Positions 8,144 to 10,674 are shown, numbered from the stretch's first letter. The stretch: 63,882 nucleotides of DNA from an uncultured Spirochaetales bacterium (GCA_964460485.1 CAYWRY010000003.1:1-63882), one strand, 5' to 3'. The notes: generated by a model from the letters alone, not told the origin. Numbers and translations: made by a program.

Positions 8144-8911
8144 TCAGGCGCGCTCGATCACCGACTTCAGCTTCGAGCGCAGGCGCAGCACGGACTTGGT
8201 GTGGATCTGGCACACGCGCGACTCGGTGATGCCGAGGATGTTCCCGATCTCTTTCATGTTGAGATCTTCGTAGTAGTAGAGCGAGATCACGAGCCGCTCC
8301 TTCTCGGGCAGGGTCGCGATCGTGTCGGCGACCACGCTGCGCATCTCCTGGAGCTTCAGCGACGCGAACGGGTTCTCGGCGTTCACGTCCTCGACCACGT
8401 CCGCGTAGCTGCCGCTGCGGTCGCCGTCCTGTCCGCCGCCGCGCAGCTCTTCGAGGTTCACCAGCGAGATGCCGCGCACCTGATTGATCAGCTCGTGGAA
8501 CTTGTCGAGCTGGAGGCCGAGCGAGTCCGCGACTTCCTCCTCGTTCGCGGAGCGGCCGAGGCGTTGCTCGACGTCTCCGTAGGCGCGCTCGAGGCGGCGC
8601 CCCTTCTGCCTCACGCTGCGCGGCACCCAGTCGAGGGAGCGGAGCTGGTCGAGGATGGCACCCTTGATGCGGAACTCGGCGTACGTCTTGAACTTGCAGT
8701 TCTTGTCGGGGTCGTACTTGTCGATCGCGTCCATCAGGCCGATCACGCCGGTGTTGTGCAGATCGTCGAGGTCGATGTGCGAGGGCAGGCGGACGGCGAT
8801 GCGATTCACGATGTACCGGATCAAGGGGGCGTGCTCGAGCACGATCCGCTCCTTGAGCGCGCCCGGGATCTCGCCGAACTTGTCTTTGGCCGTCTTGAGC
8901 TGCGCTTCCAT
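8144..8911 (-). CDS. fliA: FliA/WhiG-family (sigma28) RNA polymerase sigma factor
   Basis: LPSHIDLDDLHNTGVIGLMDAIDKYD, FKTYAEFRIKGAILDQLRSLDWVPRSVRQK, LPEKERLVISLYYYEDLNMKEIGNILGITESRVCQIH; ATG 8911 chosen, GTG 8926 is an alternative. Confidence 0.92.
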   Translation of the reverse strand: MEAQLKTAKDKFGEIPGALKERIVLEHAPLIRYIVNRIAVRLPSHIDLDDLHNTGVIGLMDAIDKYDPDKNCKFKTYAEFRIKGAILDQLRSLDWVPRSVRQKGRRLERAYGDVEQRLGRSANEEEVADSLGLQLDKFHELINQVRGISLVNLEELRGGGQDGDRSGSYADVVEDVNAENPFASLKLQEMRSVVADTIATLPEKERLVISLYYYEDLNMKEIGNILGITESRVCQIHTKSVLRLRSKLKSVIERA

Positions 8912-8987
8912 CGCTTCCTCCGCCACGCGTTTGCCCTCGCTGTTCCGGGCCTTGGACCCGCACCTGCGCGAGCCGTGCGGGGGCATG

Positions 8988-9004
8988 AGCACGGCCCATG
9001 CCAA
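8988..9004 (-). promoter_or_regulatory. sigma54 -24/-12 promoter upstream of the sigma28 gene
   Basis: Minus strand TTGGCATGGGCCGTGCT = TGGCATG-N4-GTGCT, exact GG-N10-GC spacing, about 75 nt before the start codon. Confidence 0.7.
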
Positions 9005-9282
9005 GCGCTGGCCGCGTCCGCCCTGCGCGCGCTTGCACCGGCCCCGGGCGCGCCTAACTCGCGGATTTCCGAAGCGAAACCCGCTGCGCACTGCGCGCGT
9101 GCTGCACGCGCGCGGGCGCAGCCGCGGGAGGCGCGGTCGGAAGGCGCTCGGCAGAAGCGTCGGAGCGCCGACGCTTCGCGCCCGCAGGAGTTACGAATCC
9201 GTCACGCGGGCGCGCGGCGCGGACACGATCACAGCGCGCGGCTGCGTCGCTCTCCCGGCACGCGGCGCGCGCCGGTTCTCGC

Positions 9283-10674
9283 TCACTCTTCGGGCGAGAG
9301 GCCGTGCTTCTTGATCTTCTCGAGCAGCGTGGTGCGGTTCATCTCGAGCAGCTTCGCGGCCTGATTCTTGTTCCAGCCGGTCTGTTGCAGCGCCTGGCGG
9401 ATCAGCTCCGCTTCGAAGCGATCGACGGTCGCGGTGAGTGAGAGGCCGGAGGCGCCGAGGCGCGGCGCGTCGCTCGCTGCGCGCCCGGCGTCGGGGCGCA
9501 GCGAAGAGGGCAGGTCGGCGATGCCGATCGCGCCGCCGCCCTTCAGCACAACCAGCCGCTCGATGGTGTTCTCGAGCTCGCGCACGTTGCCGGGCCAGTC
9601 GTAGGCGCAGAGCTGCTCGAGGGCGTCGCGCTCGATCGAGCAGGACGCCACGCGCCGCTCCTCCTGCACTTTCTTCAAGAAGTGGCTCACGAGCAGCGGA
9701 ATGTCGTCCTTGCGCGCGCGCAGCGGTGGCGTCTCGATCGGGATCACGTTCAGGCGGTAATAGAGGTCCTCGCGGAAGCGCCGCTCGCGGATCGCCGTCT
9801 GGAGGTTCTGGTGCGTGGCGGCGATCACGCGCACGTCCACGCGCTGGGTCTGCGACGAACCGACGGGCTCGAAGGTGCGGTCCTGGAGCACGCGCAGCAG
9901 CTTCACTTGGAGGGTGGGGCTCATGTCGCCGATCTCGTCCAGGAAGATCGTGCCGCCGTGGGCGAGCGCGAAGCGTCCCTCGCGAGCCGCGACGGCGTTG
10001 GTGAAGGCGCCCCGCACGTGCCCGAACAGCTCGCTCTCCAGCAGCTCTTCGGGGATCGCGCCGCAGTTCACGGTGACGAACATCCGCTCGGCGCGTCGGC
10101 TCCCCCAGTGAATCGCGCGCGCGACCAGCTCCTTGCCCGTGCCGCTCTCGCCGGTGATCAGCACGGTCGAGTCGGTGTCCGCCACGCGCTCCACCAGCTC
10201 GAGCACCCGGCGCAGCGGGTCGCTCGTGCCCACCAGCGGACCTTCGCCGTAGCGGCTGTGGAGCTGGCGCTGCAGCAGCCGGTTCTCGCTCTTCAGGCGC
10301 CCGTGCTCGATGGCCTGGGCGGCGAGCTTGCGCAGCACGTCGTGGGAGGTCTGCTCCGAGCCCTTGTCGAGGTACCAGTAGGCGCCCGCCTGGAGCGCCT
10401 CGAGCGAAGCCTCCGCGCCGCCGTAGCCTGTGATCACGATGCAGGGCAGGTCGGCGTTTACGTCGTGCACCTGGCGCACCAGCTCGTGTCCGCTGATGCC
10501 GGGCATCTTCACGTCGCACAGCACGAGGTCGAGCGGCTGGGAGGAGACCACGCTCATCGCCTCGGCGCCGTCGCGCACCGCCGTCACGGTGTAGCCCGCG
10601 CGCGCGAGCATGCGTTCGACCGCGCTGCGGAAGAACTCGTTGTCGTCGACCACGAGCACGTGCGGCTTCCGCAC
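9283..10674 (-). CDS. sigma54-dependent response regulator (receiver-AAA+-HTH), FleQ/FlrA-like features
   Basis: VLVVDDNEF...CDVKMPG; [10 protein letters not shown]; GAFTNA variant; FLDEIGDMS; IAATHQNL; REDLYYRLNV; [10 protein letters not shown]; GWNKNQAAKLLEMNRTTLLEK. GTG at 10674 chosen. Confidence 0.9.
   Translation of the reverse strand: MRKPHVLVVDDNEFFRSAVERMLARAGYTVTAVRDGAEAMSVVSSQPLDLVLCDVKMPGISGHELVRQVHDVNADLPCIVITGYGGAEASLEALQAGAYWYLDKGSEQTSHDVLRKLAAQAIEHGRLKSENRLLQRQLHSRYGEGPLVGTSDPLRRVLELVERVADTDSTVLITGESGTGKELVARAIHWGSRRAERMFVTVNCGAIPEELLESELFGHVRGAFTNAVAAREGRFALAHGGTIFLDEIGDMSPTLQVKLLRVLQDRTFEPVGSSQTQRVDVRVIAATHQNLQTAIRERRFREDLYYRLNVIPIETPPLRARKDDIPLLVSHFLKKVQEERRVASCSIERDALEQLCAYDWPGNVRELENTIERLVVLKGGGAIGIADLPSSLRPDAGRAASDAPRLGASGLSLTATVDRFEAELIRQALQQTGWNKNQAAKLLEMNRTTLLEKIKKHGLSPEE

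What the first reader, a model, noticed from the sequence alone, without database searches (positions are those of the whole stretch)
8144..10674. Stand-alone sigma28 gene with its own sigma54 promoter, next to a FleQ/FlrA-like activator
Seen: TGGCATG-N4-GTGCT upstream of fliA; the co-oriented upstream activator has GDMS, IAATHQNL and a GWNKNQAAKLLEMNRTTL tail plus a GAFTNA loop. Known: fliA usually sits in flhA-flhF-fleN-fliA operons; polar-flagellar hierarchies run activator plus sigma54, then sigma28. Inference: the top two tiers of a flagellar-type cascade are retained as a compact module without structural genes.
Basis: partly seen in the sequence, partly recalled or inferred. Interest (0 to 1): 0.65.

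Follow-up and report, generated by a model that had tools for sequence, protein, structure and literature searches.

The report
Sigma-54-driven sigma-28 gene controlling pili
An uncultured myxobacterium-like lineage keeps a flagellar-type sigma factor gene behind a strictly conserved sigma-54 promoter next to its probable activator, but this factor seems to switch on type IV pilus and signalling genes rather than flagella.

Summary
A FliA/WhiG-family sigma gene (8144-8911, minus strand) has a sigma-54 promoter (8988-9004). It lies directly downstream of a co-oriented sigma-54 activator (9283-10674).

- **Promoter conservation:** the motif occurs once, in register, in 80 of 80 related loci. A variant occurs in 6 of 6 sister-order loci. 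About 0.001 would be expected by chance.
- **First reading, partly right:**
  - The activator's ATPase domain is about 65% identical to FleQ, but its N-terminus is a canonical phosphorylatable receiver.
  - This genome does carry flagellar genes, on another contig.
  - Those genes have sigma-54 promoters, and a complete relative's flagellar cluster encodes two activators of its own.
- **Distribution across the class:**

| Gene | All genomes | High-quality genomes |
|---|---|---|
| Sigma gene | 184 of 201 | 115 of 118 |
| Flagellin | 71 of 201 | 49 of 118 |

- **Target promoters:** sigma-28-type promoters, T(A/C)AAG-N16-CCGAT(A/G), precede pilB in 39 of 39 genomes. They also precede the neighbouring PP2C gene (59 of 69) and the divergent activator-kinase operon (43 of 51).

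Best reading: a class-wide sigma-54 to sigma-28 relay that serves type IV pili and signalling. It is a new variant of known wiring.

The parts
8144..8911 (-). FliA/WhiG-family (sigma-28) sigma factor gene, 255 aa
   Evidence: TIGR02479 scores 278.7 bits against a cut-off of 189.6. Pfam finds Sigma70 r2, r3 and r4. The best solved relative is Streptomyces WhiG 6PFV at 243 bits, against 193 for E. coli FliA. It is the only family member above the cut-off in this genome. Orthologs of 72-98% identity occur in 184 of 201 genomes of the class.
8988..9004 (-). Sigma-54 (-24/-12) promoter TTGGCATGGGCCGTGCT; predicted start near 8977, leader of about 66 nt
   Evidence: Read directly, with coordinates. 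One motif in register in 80 of 80 related loci. A variant is present in 6 of 6 sister-order loci. The genome-wide background is 19 strict hits.
9154..9177 (.). Conserved inverted repeat GAAGCGTCGG-AGCG-CCGACGCTTC; candidate enhancer site about 150-190 nt upstream of the promoter
   Evidence: It forms the conserved block gCGTCGG..CtGACGC in an alignment of 77 upstream regions. The sister order has GTCA-N6-TGAC at the same place, a symmetric change. It is not followed by a T-run and is not called as a terminator.
9190..9204 (-). Conserved A+T-richer box TGACGGATTCGTAAC; second candidate regulator site
   Evidence: It is the best conserved block in the 77-sequence alignment. It is unique in the genome. 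It is recognisable in sister-order loci L137, L138 and L140.
9283..10674 (-). act1: NtrC-type response-regulator sigma-54 activator (REC, AAA+, HTH_8) with a GAFTNA loop and a FleQ-like central domain
   Evidence: Pfam architecture. No NCBIfam equivalog cut-off is reached. FleQ 8P53 aligns at 330 bits. GAFTNA is present in 62 of 72 orthologs, and act1 is the only one of about 17 activators in this genome with it. Adjacency to the sigma gene is conserved.
10725..10752 (+). Sigma-28-type promoter TCAAG-N16-CCGATGA in front of act2
   Evidence: CAAG-N16-CCGAT is present in 43 of 51 related loci upstream of act2 and in 9 of 10 sister-order loci.
10760..14307 (+). act2 (sigma-54 activator, GAFTGA, 10760-12199), PAS histidine kinase (12332-13942) and a single-domain receiver (13939-14307)
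   Evidence: Pfam results, translation, synteny.
7203..7230 (+). Sigma-28-type promoter TCAAG-N16-CCGATGA in front of the PP2C gene
   Evidence: Present in 59 of 69 related loci. Control genes gave RR439 1 of 65, act1 1 of 65, the sigma gene 1 of 79 and the kinase 1 of 15.
7266..7991 (+). PP2C-family Ser/Thr phosphatase, convergent with the sigma gene
   Evidence: Pfam PP2C scores 69.5 bits. The position is conserved.
39604..39631 (+). Sigma-28-type promoter TTAAG-N16-CCGATAA in front of pilB-pilT-pilC
   Evidence: T(A/C)AAG-N16-CCGATAA, mostly TAAAG...GCCGATAA, lies upstream of pilB in 39 of 39 genomes of the class. The reverse-complement control gave 4 of 39. PilB, PilT and PilC were confirmed by Pfam.
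48476..48503 (+). Sigma-28-type promoter in front of minor-pilin genes
   Evidence: Motif found. The downstream frame encodes the prepilin-like GFTIVEMM, and the next gene has an N_methyl motif. Conservation was not tested.
58776..58903 (.). Divergent pair of sigma-28-type promoters: 58803-58776 (minus) for a sigma-54 activator gene (57388-58755) and 58876-58903 (plus) for an HTH gene plus pilMNOPQ
   Evidence: Motifs found. Pfam confirms the gene identities. Conservation was not tested.

Best explanation
This is a transcriptional relay.

1. An unidentified kinase phosphorylates act1, a response-regulator-type sigma-54 activator with a FleQ-like ATPase domain.
2. act1 binds the conserved repeats about 150-215 bp upstream of the sigma-54 promoter at 8988-9004.
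3. It drives open-complex formation there, so that the monocistronic FliA/WhiG-family sigma gene is made only on signal.
4. The new sigma factor then reads promoters of the form T(A/C)AAG-N16-CCGAT(A/G). These precede:
   - the type IV pilus genes (pilB-T-C, minor pilins, pilMNOPQ);
   - its own neighbours (the PP2C phosphatase and the act2-kinase-receiver operon);
   - a second activator gene, a chemotaxis operon and other signalling genes.

Flagella, where present, run on sigma-54 promoters. In the one complete relative read, the flagellar cluster also encodes its own activators.

**Shown here**
- The promoter, its conservation and the synteny.
- The family of each protein.
- The presence and conservation of the sigma-28-type promoters.
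- The distribution of the genes across genomes.

**Inferred**
- That act1 is the activator of this promoter.
- That this sigma factor reads the T(A/C)AAG-N16-CCGAT promoters.
- The transcription start.
For: **Sigma-54 promoter**
- 80 of 80 loci carry it, against about 0.001 expected. The sister order gives 6 of 6.
- rpoN is present.
- No sigma-70-like promoter and no terminator lies between act1 and the sigma gene.

**act1 as partner**
- Adjacency is conserved across two orders.
- The upstream boxes are conserved, and one is unique in the genome.

**Promoter class**
- In this genome, spacer 16 gives 24 hits of which 15 are upstream and intergenic. Spacers 14, 15, 17 and 18 give 0, 2, 4 and 1.
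- Its geometry and -10 element equal the published FliA/WhiG consensus, -35 T(A/C)AA, N16, -10 GCCGATAA (PMC12871210; PMC8325347).
- It is conserved before pilB (39 of 39), PP2C (59 of 69) and act2 (43 of 51). Control genes have it in 1 of 15 to 1 of 79 loci; a weaker variant counted before nadC in 6 of 58.

**Distribution**
- The sigma gene is in 115 of 118 high-quality genomes and flagellin in 49 of 118.
- The sigma gene and pilB co-occur in 59 of 59 genomes and are both absent in 2 of 2.

**Flagella use sigma-54**
- Sigma-54 promoters lie before flagellin and near the start of flgF in this genome.
- Four lie in a complete relative's cluster, which also has two internal activators.
- 16 of 20 flagellin genes have one.
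Against: - No transcript, binding or in vitro data exist.
- The genome holds about 17 sigma-54 activators. Adjacency does not prove that act1 serves this promoter.
- Other sigma-70-family genes exist in the genome. The link between this sigma factor and the CCGAT promoters rests on family-level promoter specificity and on co-location.
- A sigma-28-type promoter does precede the chemotaxis operon (C89:154), and a sister-order flagellin has one. A partial flagellar or chemotaxis role therefore remains.
- The MAG lacks half of its flagellar cluster, because contig C92 ends inside flhA. Promoters there are unseen.
- No anti-sigma factor was found for this order, so the post-translational control is unknown.
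Confidence: 0.72

Rival explanations
1. This is a classical flagellar hierarchy. act1 would be the FleQ/FlrA-type master regulator and the sigma factor the late flagellar sigma, merely displaced from the flagellar cluster.
For: - The genome has flagellar genes.
- The act1 ATPase domain is closest to FleQ.
- Sigma-54-dependent fliA transcription is known in Geobacter, Vibrio and Campylobacter (PMC2725144).
- The chemotaxis operon carries a sigma-28-type promoter.
Against: - The module is present in 117 genomes without a flagellin hit, including a complete chromosome that lacks FlhA.
- Flagellin and rod genes carry sigma-54 promoters.
- The flagellar cluster of a complete relative has two activators of its own. 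It has no sigma-28-type promoter before any structural gene.
- act1 has a canonical receiver and no FleQ domain.
Confidence: 0.08
2. The sigma-54 promoter is real but is served by a different activator, for example act2, a PilR-type protein or a distant one. act1 would regulate other genes and be a neighbour only by descent.
For: - About 17 activators are encoded.
- act2, a PilR-like protein (45470-46864) and a further activator (57388-58755) lie in the same window.
- Enhancer-binding proteins can act at a distance.
Against: - The order act1, then promoter, then sigma gene, co-oriented, is kept across two orders, although the spacer varies from 231 to over 900 nt.
- The TGACGGnTTCGTAAC box is unique to this intergenic region, which fits a dedicated regulator.
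- act2 itself lies behind a sigma-28-type promoter, so it is downstream of the sigma factor.
Confidence: 0.15
3. The T(A/C)AAG-N16-CCGAT promoters are read by another alternative sigma factor, and the FliA/WhiG-family factor has an unrelated, unseen regulon.
For: Several other sigma-70-family genes exist in the genome. No direct test was possible.
Against: - The motif equals the experimentally defined FliA/WhiG consensus in both elements and in spacing.
- Two of its best conserved copies flank the sigma gene itself.
- The two high-quality genomes that lack the sigma gene also lack pilB.
Confidence: 0.05

Closest known systems
Sigma-54-dependent fliA transcription in polar-flagellar hierarchies (Geobacter sulfurreducens flhA-flhF-flhG-fliA operon; Vibrio and Campylobacter as cited there; PMC2725144)
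   Same: A sigma-54 promoter and an enhancer-binding protein set the level of the sigma-28 factor. In Geobacter the highest-scoring RpoN promoter of the genome precedes the operon that contains fliA.
   Different: - Here the sigma gene is monocistronic and detached from flhA-flhF-flhG.
- It is paired with a dedicated response-regulator activator.
- It is kept in non-flagellate genomes.
- Its predicted targets are pilus and signalling genes, while the flagellar genes themselves, including flagellin, use sigma-54.
WhiG (sigma-28 family) regulons of Actinomycetota that control type IV pili (Rubrobacter radiotolerans, Actinoplanes missouriensis; PMC8325347, PMC12871210)
   Same: - A flagellar-clade sigma factor is co-opted for type IV pilus gene clusters and signalling genes.
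- The promoter consensus is identical: T(A/C)AA-N16-GCCGATAA.
- Streptomyces WhiG is the best solved match of this protein.
   Different: - In those actinobacteria control is post-translational, through the anti-sigma RsiG and c-di-GMP.
- Here the visible control is transcriptional, through a sigma-54 promoter and an adjacent activator.
- Neither FlgM nor (untested) RsiG was recognised in this order.
- The phylum is different.
Orphan FliA-FlgM of non-flagellate Legionella oakridgensis (PMC5655016)
   Same: A sigma-28 factor is retained and functional after loss of all flagellar structural genes.
   Different: - Legionella keeps FlgM. This order has no detectable FlgM, whereas the sister order keeps one, read directly downstream of the sigma gene in G028.
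- In L. pneumophila fliA induction is FleQ-dependent but RpoN-independent.
FleQ of Pseudomonas aeruginosa (PDB 8P53, 5EXX)
   Same: The AAA+ and HTH regions align at 330 bits, with about 65% identity over the ATPase domain. Shared stretches include IGDM, IAATH(K/Q)NL and FREDLYYRLNV.
   Different: - The N-terminal domain is a canonical phosphorylatable receiver instead of the degenerate FleQ domain.
- The loop is GAFTNA rather than GAFTGA.
- The alignment starts after FleQ residue 146, and FleQ has KEVVARN where act1 has KELVARA. By my memory of FleQ's c-di-GMP contacts, these cover two of the binding elements.
- It is not linked to flagellar genes.

Membership tests
FliA/WhiG (sigma-28) family of sigma factors | Scores above the curated cut-off of the family model TIGR02479 | tested here: met
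   278.7 bits against a cut-off of 189.6. It is the only such gene in the genome.
FliA/WhiG (sigma-28) family of sigma factors | Group-3 architecture: regions 2, 3 and 4, no region 1.1, about 250 aa | tested here: met
   Pfam finds Sigma70_r2, r3 and r4 in a 255-aa protein.
FliA/WhiG (sigma-28) family of sigma factors | Cognate promoters TAAA-N15-GCCGATAA present before plausible target genes | tested here: met
   The spacer-specific motif class is shown. pilB has it in 39 of 39 genomes, PP2C in 59 of 69 and act2 in 43 of 51. That this protein reads them is inferred.
FliA/WhiG (sigma-28) family of sigma factors | Equivalog-level identity with WhiG (NF004935) or a named FliA equivalog | tested here: not met
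   WhiG model 297.5 bits against a cut-off of 343. The other equivalog models also fall below their cut-offs.
Flagellar sigma factor in the functional sense (FliA with FlgM and class III flagellar genes) | Co-distribution with flagellar genes, and flagellin under a sigma-28 promoter | tested here: not met
   The sigma gene is in 184 of 201 genomes and flagellin in 71 of 201. Flagellin has sigma-54 promoters in this genome, in G001 and in 16 of 20 others.
Flagellar sigma factor in the functional sense (FliA with FlgM and class III flagellar genes) | FlgM anti-sigma factor present | tested here: not met
   Pfam FlgM matches over its cut-off occur only in the sister order, in 27 genomes; one sub-threshold match lies in this order. 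A profile built from sister-order FlgM finds nothing in this genome. The MAG is 94% complete.
FleQ/FlrA flagellar master regulators | N-terminal FleQ-type receiver-like domain that lacks the phospho-acceptor site | tested here: not met
   Pfam Response_reg scores 89.5 bits and there is no FleQ-domain hit. VVDDNE, LVLCDVKMPG, VITGYG and YLDKG are visible in the translation.
FleQ/FlrA flagellar master regulators | Central sigma-54 interaction domain close to FleQ/FlrA | tested here: met
   Whole-sequence scores are 340 bits for FleQ and 285 for FlrA. NtrC1 AAA+ scores 234 and FlrC 220. act2 scores only 235 to FleQ.
FleQ/FlrA flagellar master regulators | Encoded with, and controlling, flagellar genes | tested here: not met
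   The synteny never includes flagellar genes. The module is present in genomes without FlhA or flagellin. The flagellar cluster has its own activators.
FleQ/FlrA flagellar master regulators | c-di-GMP-binding residues of FleQ (the residue list is from my own knowledge, not from a tool) | tested here: inconclusive
   The alignment begins after FleQ residue 146, and FleQ has KEVVARN where act1 has KELVARA. No structural test was made.
NtrC-type two-component sigma-54 activators | Receiver, then AAA+ with a GAFTGA-type loop, then a Fis-type HTH | tested here: met
   Pfam architecture. The loop is GAFTNA, conserved in 62 of 72 orthologs.
NtrC-type two-component sigma-54 activators | Cognate histidine kinase identified | tested here: not met
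   No kinase gene is in the act1 transcription unit. The nearest kinase belongs to the act2 operon.
Sigma-54 promoter | GG-N10-GC with TGGCAC/TTGCW context, conserved in orthologous position, rpoN in the genome | tested here: met
Sigma-54 promoter | Transcript 5' end about 12 nt downstream of the GC | not testable with these tools

The most novel reading that the evidence does not exclude
In this whole uncultured class the flagellar sigma factor has been fully divorced from flagella. It has become the middle tier of an alternating relay: sigma-54, then sigma-28, then sigma-54 again.

- act1 fires the sigma-28 gene.
- Sigma-28 builds the type IV pilus machine and also makes further sigma-54 activators (act2 and the gene at 57388-58755) and a PP2C phosphatase.
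- Those activators would open a third tier of sigma-54 promoters.
- The phosphatase would replace the lost FlgM as feedback on the circuit.

Where flagella coexist, they would be controlled in parallel by sigma-54 alone. The cell would then choose between pili and flagella at the level of which enhancer-binding protein is phosphorylated.
Probability: 0.3. Interest if true: 0.72.

Novelty: new variant of a known kind. Interest (0 to 1): 0.55.

Why it matters
- **A clean natural case of regulatory re-use.** A sigma factor normally tied to the flagellum is kept at 72-98% identity across a whole class. It keeps its promoter specificity but changes its targets to pili and signalling, and its input to a dedicated sigma-54 switch.
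- **An explanation for orphan copies.** It explains why 'orphan' flagellar sigma factors persist in non-flagellate bacteria.
- **A convergent example.** It extends the WhiG-to-pili wiring, known only from Actinomycetota, to a Gram-negative, myxobacteria-like phylum.
- **A testable regulon.** It gives a sequence-defined regulon for organisms that have never been cultured.
- **Practical annotation rules.** In these genomes 'fliA' should not be used as a marker of flagellar motility, and flagellin genes should be expected behind sigma-54 promoters.

Tried and rejected
1. **Canonical sigma-28 search.** A strict TAAA-N15-GCCGATAA search of this genome gave one hit, on a low-GC contig (C220) that encodes a Cas9-like protein and is probably contamination. 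I rejected it. Relaxing the -35 element revealed the real class.
2. **TTCGTAAC near another promoter.** A copy lies near another sigma-54 promoter (C6:25039). On inspection it is a different repeat context, so it is not a second act1 site.
3. **Inverted repeat as terminator.** I tested whether the repeat at 9154-9177 is the act1 terminator. It has no T-run and is not called by the scan. The fold of the region is no better than shuffles (z = -1.1).
4. **Second FliA paralog.** Same-genus genomes carry a paralog of 40-41% identity that might have been the true flagellar sigma. Where it could be read (G149) it lies among metabolic genes, not flagellar ones, and it is absent from this assembly.
5. 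**Sigma-28-type promoters in flagellar clusters.** In G001 and on C92 the only one found precedes an HDOD/oxidoreductase unit (G001, locus position 63614). The motA upstream region has only a -10-like CCGATAG.
7. **Formal activator phylogeny against FleQ, FlrA, FlrC and FgrM.** Not done, because reference sequences could not be pulled as sequences. Score comparisons against solved structures were used instead.
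Full report
**What is there**

The window is contig C3 of a 4.5-Mb metagenome-assembled genome with 72% G+C and 94% completeness.

- On the minus strand, 8144-8911 encodes a 255-aa sigma factor. It scores 278.7 bits on the FliA/WhiG family model, above the 189.6 cut-off, but reaches no equivalog cut-off. It has sigma regions 2, 3 and 4. Its best solved relative is Streptomyces WhiG (243 bits), ahead of E. coli FliA (193 bits). It is the only family member above the cut-off in the genome.
- Upstream and co-oriented, 9283-10674 encodes act1, with receiver, sigma-54 interaction, lid and Fis-type HTH domains.
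- The motif TTGGCATGGGCCGTGCT lies at 9004-8988 with correct GG-N10-GC spacing. This predicts a start near 8977 and a 66-nt leader ending in GGAGGAAG-N6-ATG.

**Is the promoter more than chance?**

- The strict pattern occurs 19 times in both strands of the genome, which is about 0.001 expected per 450 nt.
- A search of one genome per species found more than 490 relatives of the sigma factor. The best 80 are at 81-98% identity, and nearly all are labelled Myxococcota or Deltaproteobacteria MAGs.
- All 80 loci have exactly one such motif 63-188 nt before the start codon. TGGCA and TGCT are invariant and the spacer varies freely, which is a textbook footprint.
- In a sister order the same position carries (C/A)GGCAY-N5-TTGCA in 6 of 6 loci.
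- rpoN is present.
- No sigma-70-like promoter and no intrinsic terminator lies between act1 and the sigma gene.

**Surroundings**

The gene order is kept in essentially all loci of both orders. On the window's plus strand it reads:

- nadC (transcribed leftward);
- a receiver protein (leftward);
- PP2C (rightward);
- the sigma gene (leftward);
- act1 (leftward);
- act2 (rightward);
- the kinase (rightward).

The act1-to-promoter spacer is 231-480 nt in most loci. It contains three conserved blocks:

- TGACGGtTTCGTAAC (window 9190-9204), which is unique in the genome;
- the inverted repeat GCGTCGG-N4-CCGACGC (within 9154-9177), which becomes GTCA-N6-TGAC in the sister order, a symmetric change;
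- a GCCGCC/GGCGGC repeat.

They lie about 100-215 bp upstream of the promoter, where enhancer sites are expected. act1 is one of about 17 sigma-54 activators in the genome and the only one with GAFTNA. That loop is kept in 62 of 72 orthologs.

**Is act1 FleQ-like?**

Partly.

- Against solved structures its AAA+/HTH part matches P. aeruginosa FleQ best. The whole-sequence score is 340 bits and the aligned domain 330 bits. Identity is about 65% over the ATPase domain.
- FlrA follows at 285 bits, NtrC1 AAA+ at 234 and FlrC at 220.
- The neighbouring act2 and a flagellar-cluster activator of a relative score only 235 and 248 bits to FleQ. They prefer NtrC4 and ZraR.
- However, the N-terminus is a canonical receiver with, by my reading, all phosphorylation residues. 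There is no FleQ domain.
- act1 is therefore a two-component response regulator with a FleQ-type engine.

**Flagellar inventory**

- Contrary to 'without structural genes', contig C92 carries flhA (cut by the contig end), flhF, flhG, an HDOD gene, flgF, flgG, flgA, flgH, flgI, an flgJ-like gene, an flgN-like gene, flgK, flgL, csrA, fliW, fliC, fliD and fliS. motB is on C283.
- The other half of the cluster (fliE to fliR, flhB, flgB to flgE) was not found and is probably missing from the bin.
- No fliA follows flhG.
- Two of the 19 strict sigma-54 motifs of the genome lie on C92. One is about 135 nt before the flagellin start. The other lies just upstream of the probable flgF start.
- In a complete, flagellate relative (G001) the 45-kb cluster has four sigma-54 promoters. 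It encodes two activators of its own, one with a degenerate receiver and one with a GAFSGA loop. No sigma-28-type promoter precedes any structural gene.
- Of 20 further flagellin genes in the class, 16 have a sigma-54 promoter and 2 a weak sigma-28-like one.

**Distribution** (an evenly drawn sample of 201 genomes of the class)

| Gene | All genomes | High-quality genomes |
|---|---|---|
| Sigma factor | 184 of 201 | 115 of 118 |
| Flagellin family | 71 of 201 | 49 of 118 |

- By comparing the two lists, 117 sigma-bearing genomes have no flagellin hit.
- Four of eight relatives that hold the module lack FlhA. One of them is a complete 6.2-Mb chromosome.
- The module is therefore not tied to flagella.

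**What the sigma factor probably reads**

- The canonical TAAA-N15-GCCGATAA gave nothing real in this genome.
- A relaxed search exposed a promoter class, CAAG-N16-CCGAT(A/G), with a sharp spacer optimum. Spacer 16 gives 24 sites, 15 of them intergenic and correctly oriented. Spacers 14, 15, 17 and 18 give 0, 2, 4 and 1.
- Its geometry and -10 box equal the experimentally defined FliA/WhiG consensus, -35 T(A/C)AA, N16, -10 GCCGATAA (PMC12871210; PMC8325347).
- Two of its copies flank the sigma gene. One precedes PP2C (7203-7230), conserved in 59 of 69 loci. One precedes act2 (10725-10752), conserved in 43 of 51 loci and in 9 of 10 sister-order loci.
- The control genes RR439, act1, the sigma gene and the kinase show it in 1 of 15 to 1 of 79 loci. 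A weaker variant counted before nadC in 6 of 58.
- An earlier first-reader note on this window (e1-5126335) pointed to pilus genes, so I tested pilB. Upstream of pilB, 39 of 39 genomes spanning both orders carry T(A/C)AAG-N16-CCGATAA, mostly the full canonical TAAAG...GCCGATAA. The reverse-complement control gave 4 of 39.
- Pfam confirms PilB, PilT, PilC, a PilR-like activator, a pilin-like protein and PilM in the window.
- Further copies precede minor pilins (48476), an HTH gene plus pilMNOPQ (58876), another activator gene (58803, minus strand), the chemotaxis operon (C89:154), and genes that look by eye like FHA, kinase, Crp-like and Roadblock proteins.
- The sigma gene and pilB co-occur in 59 of 59 high-quality genomes. 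The two genomes without the sigma gene also lack pilB.

**Control of the factor itself**

- Pfam FlgM matches over its cut-off are found only in the sister order. There, in the one locus checked by coordinates (G028), it lies directly downstream of the sigma gene.
- A profile of those FlgM proteins finds nothing in this genome.
- In this order the visible control is therefore transcriptional.
- The sigma-dependent PP2C phosphatase and the act2-kinase-receiver operon are candidate feedback elements. This is inference.

**Comparison with the known**

- Sigma-54-dependent fliA is established or predicted in Geobacter, Vibrio and Campylobacter (PMC2725144).
- WhiG-family factors that drive type IV pili are described in Rubrobacter and Actinoplanes and predicted in several actinobacterial families.
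- Orphan FliA-FlgM pairs persist in non-flagellate Legionella.
- I found no paper that describes this wiring in Myxococcota-like lineages.
- A 2026 preprint on class UBA9160 ('Vahlivitia', Myxococcota_A) does not mention flagella. That is probably this lineage, judged from isolate names.
- An earlier agent of this scan reached the same reading on another genome (e1-2450326). My tests were made independently on this window and agree.

**Verdict**

- The feature is a class-wide sigma-54 to sigma-28 relay, re-targeted to type IV pili and signalling.
- It is a new variant of known kinds.
- The steps that remain inferred are the act1-promoter pairing, the assignment of the sigma factor to these promoters and the transcription start.

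Noticed in passing
genome contig C92:1-16625 (not in the window): This is half of a flagellar gene cluster. flhG is followed by an HDOD gene instead of fliA. csrA and fliW lie between flgL and fliC. Sigma-54 promoters lie at C92:3500 (before flagellin) and C92:12757 (just upstream of the probable flgF start). The contig ends inside flhA, so the rest of the cluster is missing from the bin.
   Followed up: partly
window 5637-6956 (-): A 439-aa protein has an N-terminal receiver, a long Ala/Pro/Glu-rich linker and a conserved C-terminal helix. From memory, this architecture resembles the polarity regulator RomR of Myxococcus. It is conserved next to the PP2C gene in all loci. Only the receiver domain was confirmed.
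   Followed up: no
sister-order loci L141, L143, L144, L146: In several non-flagellate sister-order genomes, mostly of one genus, the act1 and PP2C neighbours stay in place and Pfam FlgM hits map between them by coordinates. The sigma gene is no longer between them. A more divergent copy (E about 1e-110) lies elsewhere in those genomes.
   Followed up: no
G001:C1:2085000-2160000 (loci L093-L096): The flagellar cluster of a complete relative holds two sigma-54 activators of its own. One is a 482-aa protein after motAB with VIAEERLP where the phospho-Asp should be. The other is a 449-aa protein with a GAFSGA loop before the fliF unit. Genes that may be for sugar modification lie next to motAB.
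   Followed up: partly
genome contig C220:1-5369: This low-G+C contig encodes a Cas9-like large protein and is out of character for a 72% G+C genome. It is probably bin contamination. It also gave the only 'perfect' sigma-28 consensus hit.
   Followed up: partly
window 10725-10760: The -10 box of the act2 promoter ends 8 nt before the first in-frame ATG. In this genus the act2 mRNA is therefore leaderless, or translation starts further downstream. In other genera the gap is 22-28 nt.
   Followed up: no
window 39746-41422 (+): PilB carries an N-terminal MshEN domain (94 bits). From memory, this domain type binds c-di-GMP in MshE, which hints at a second-messenger input to pilus extension.
   Followed up: no
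G061:C95, G149:C187, G156:C146: Same-genus genomes carry a second FliA-family paralog of 40-41% identity. Where it could be read (G149) it lies among metabolic genes, not flagellar ones. It is absent from this assembly.
   Followed up: partly
window 41-63 kb: Large-scale synteny: the sigma module and the pilB cluster lie about 30 kb apart here and in complete relatives (for example G045, G076 and G019).
   Followed up: partly
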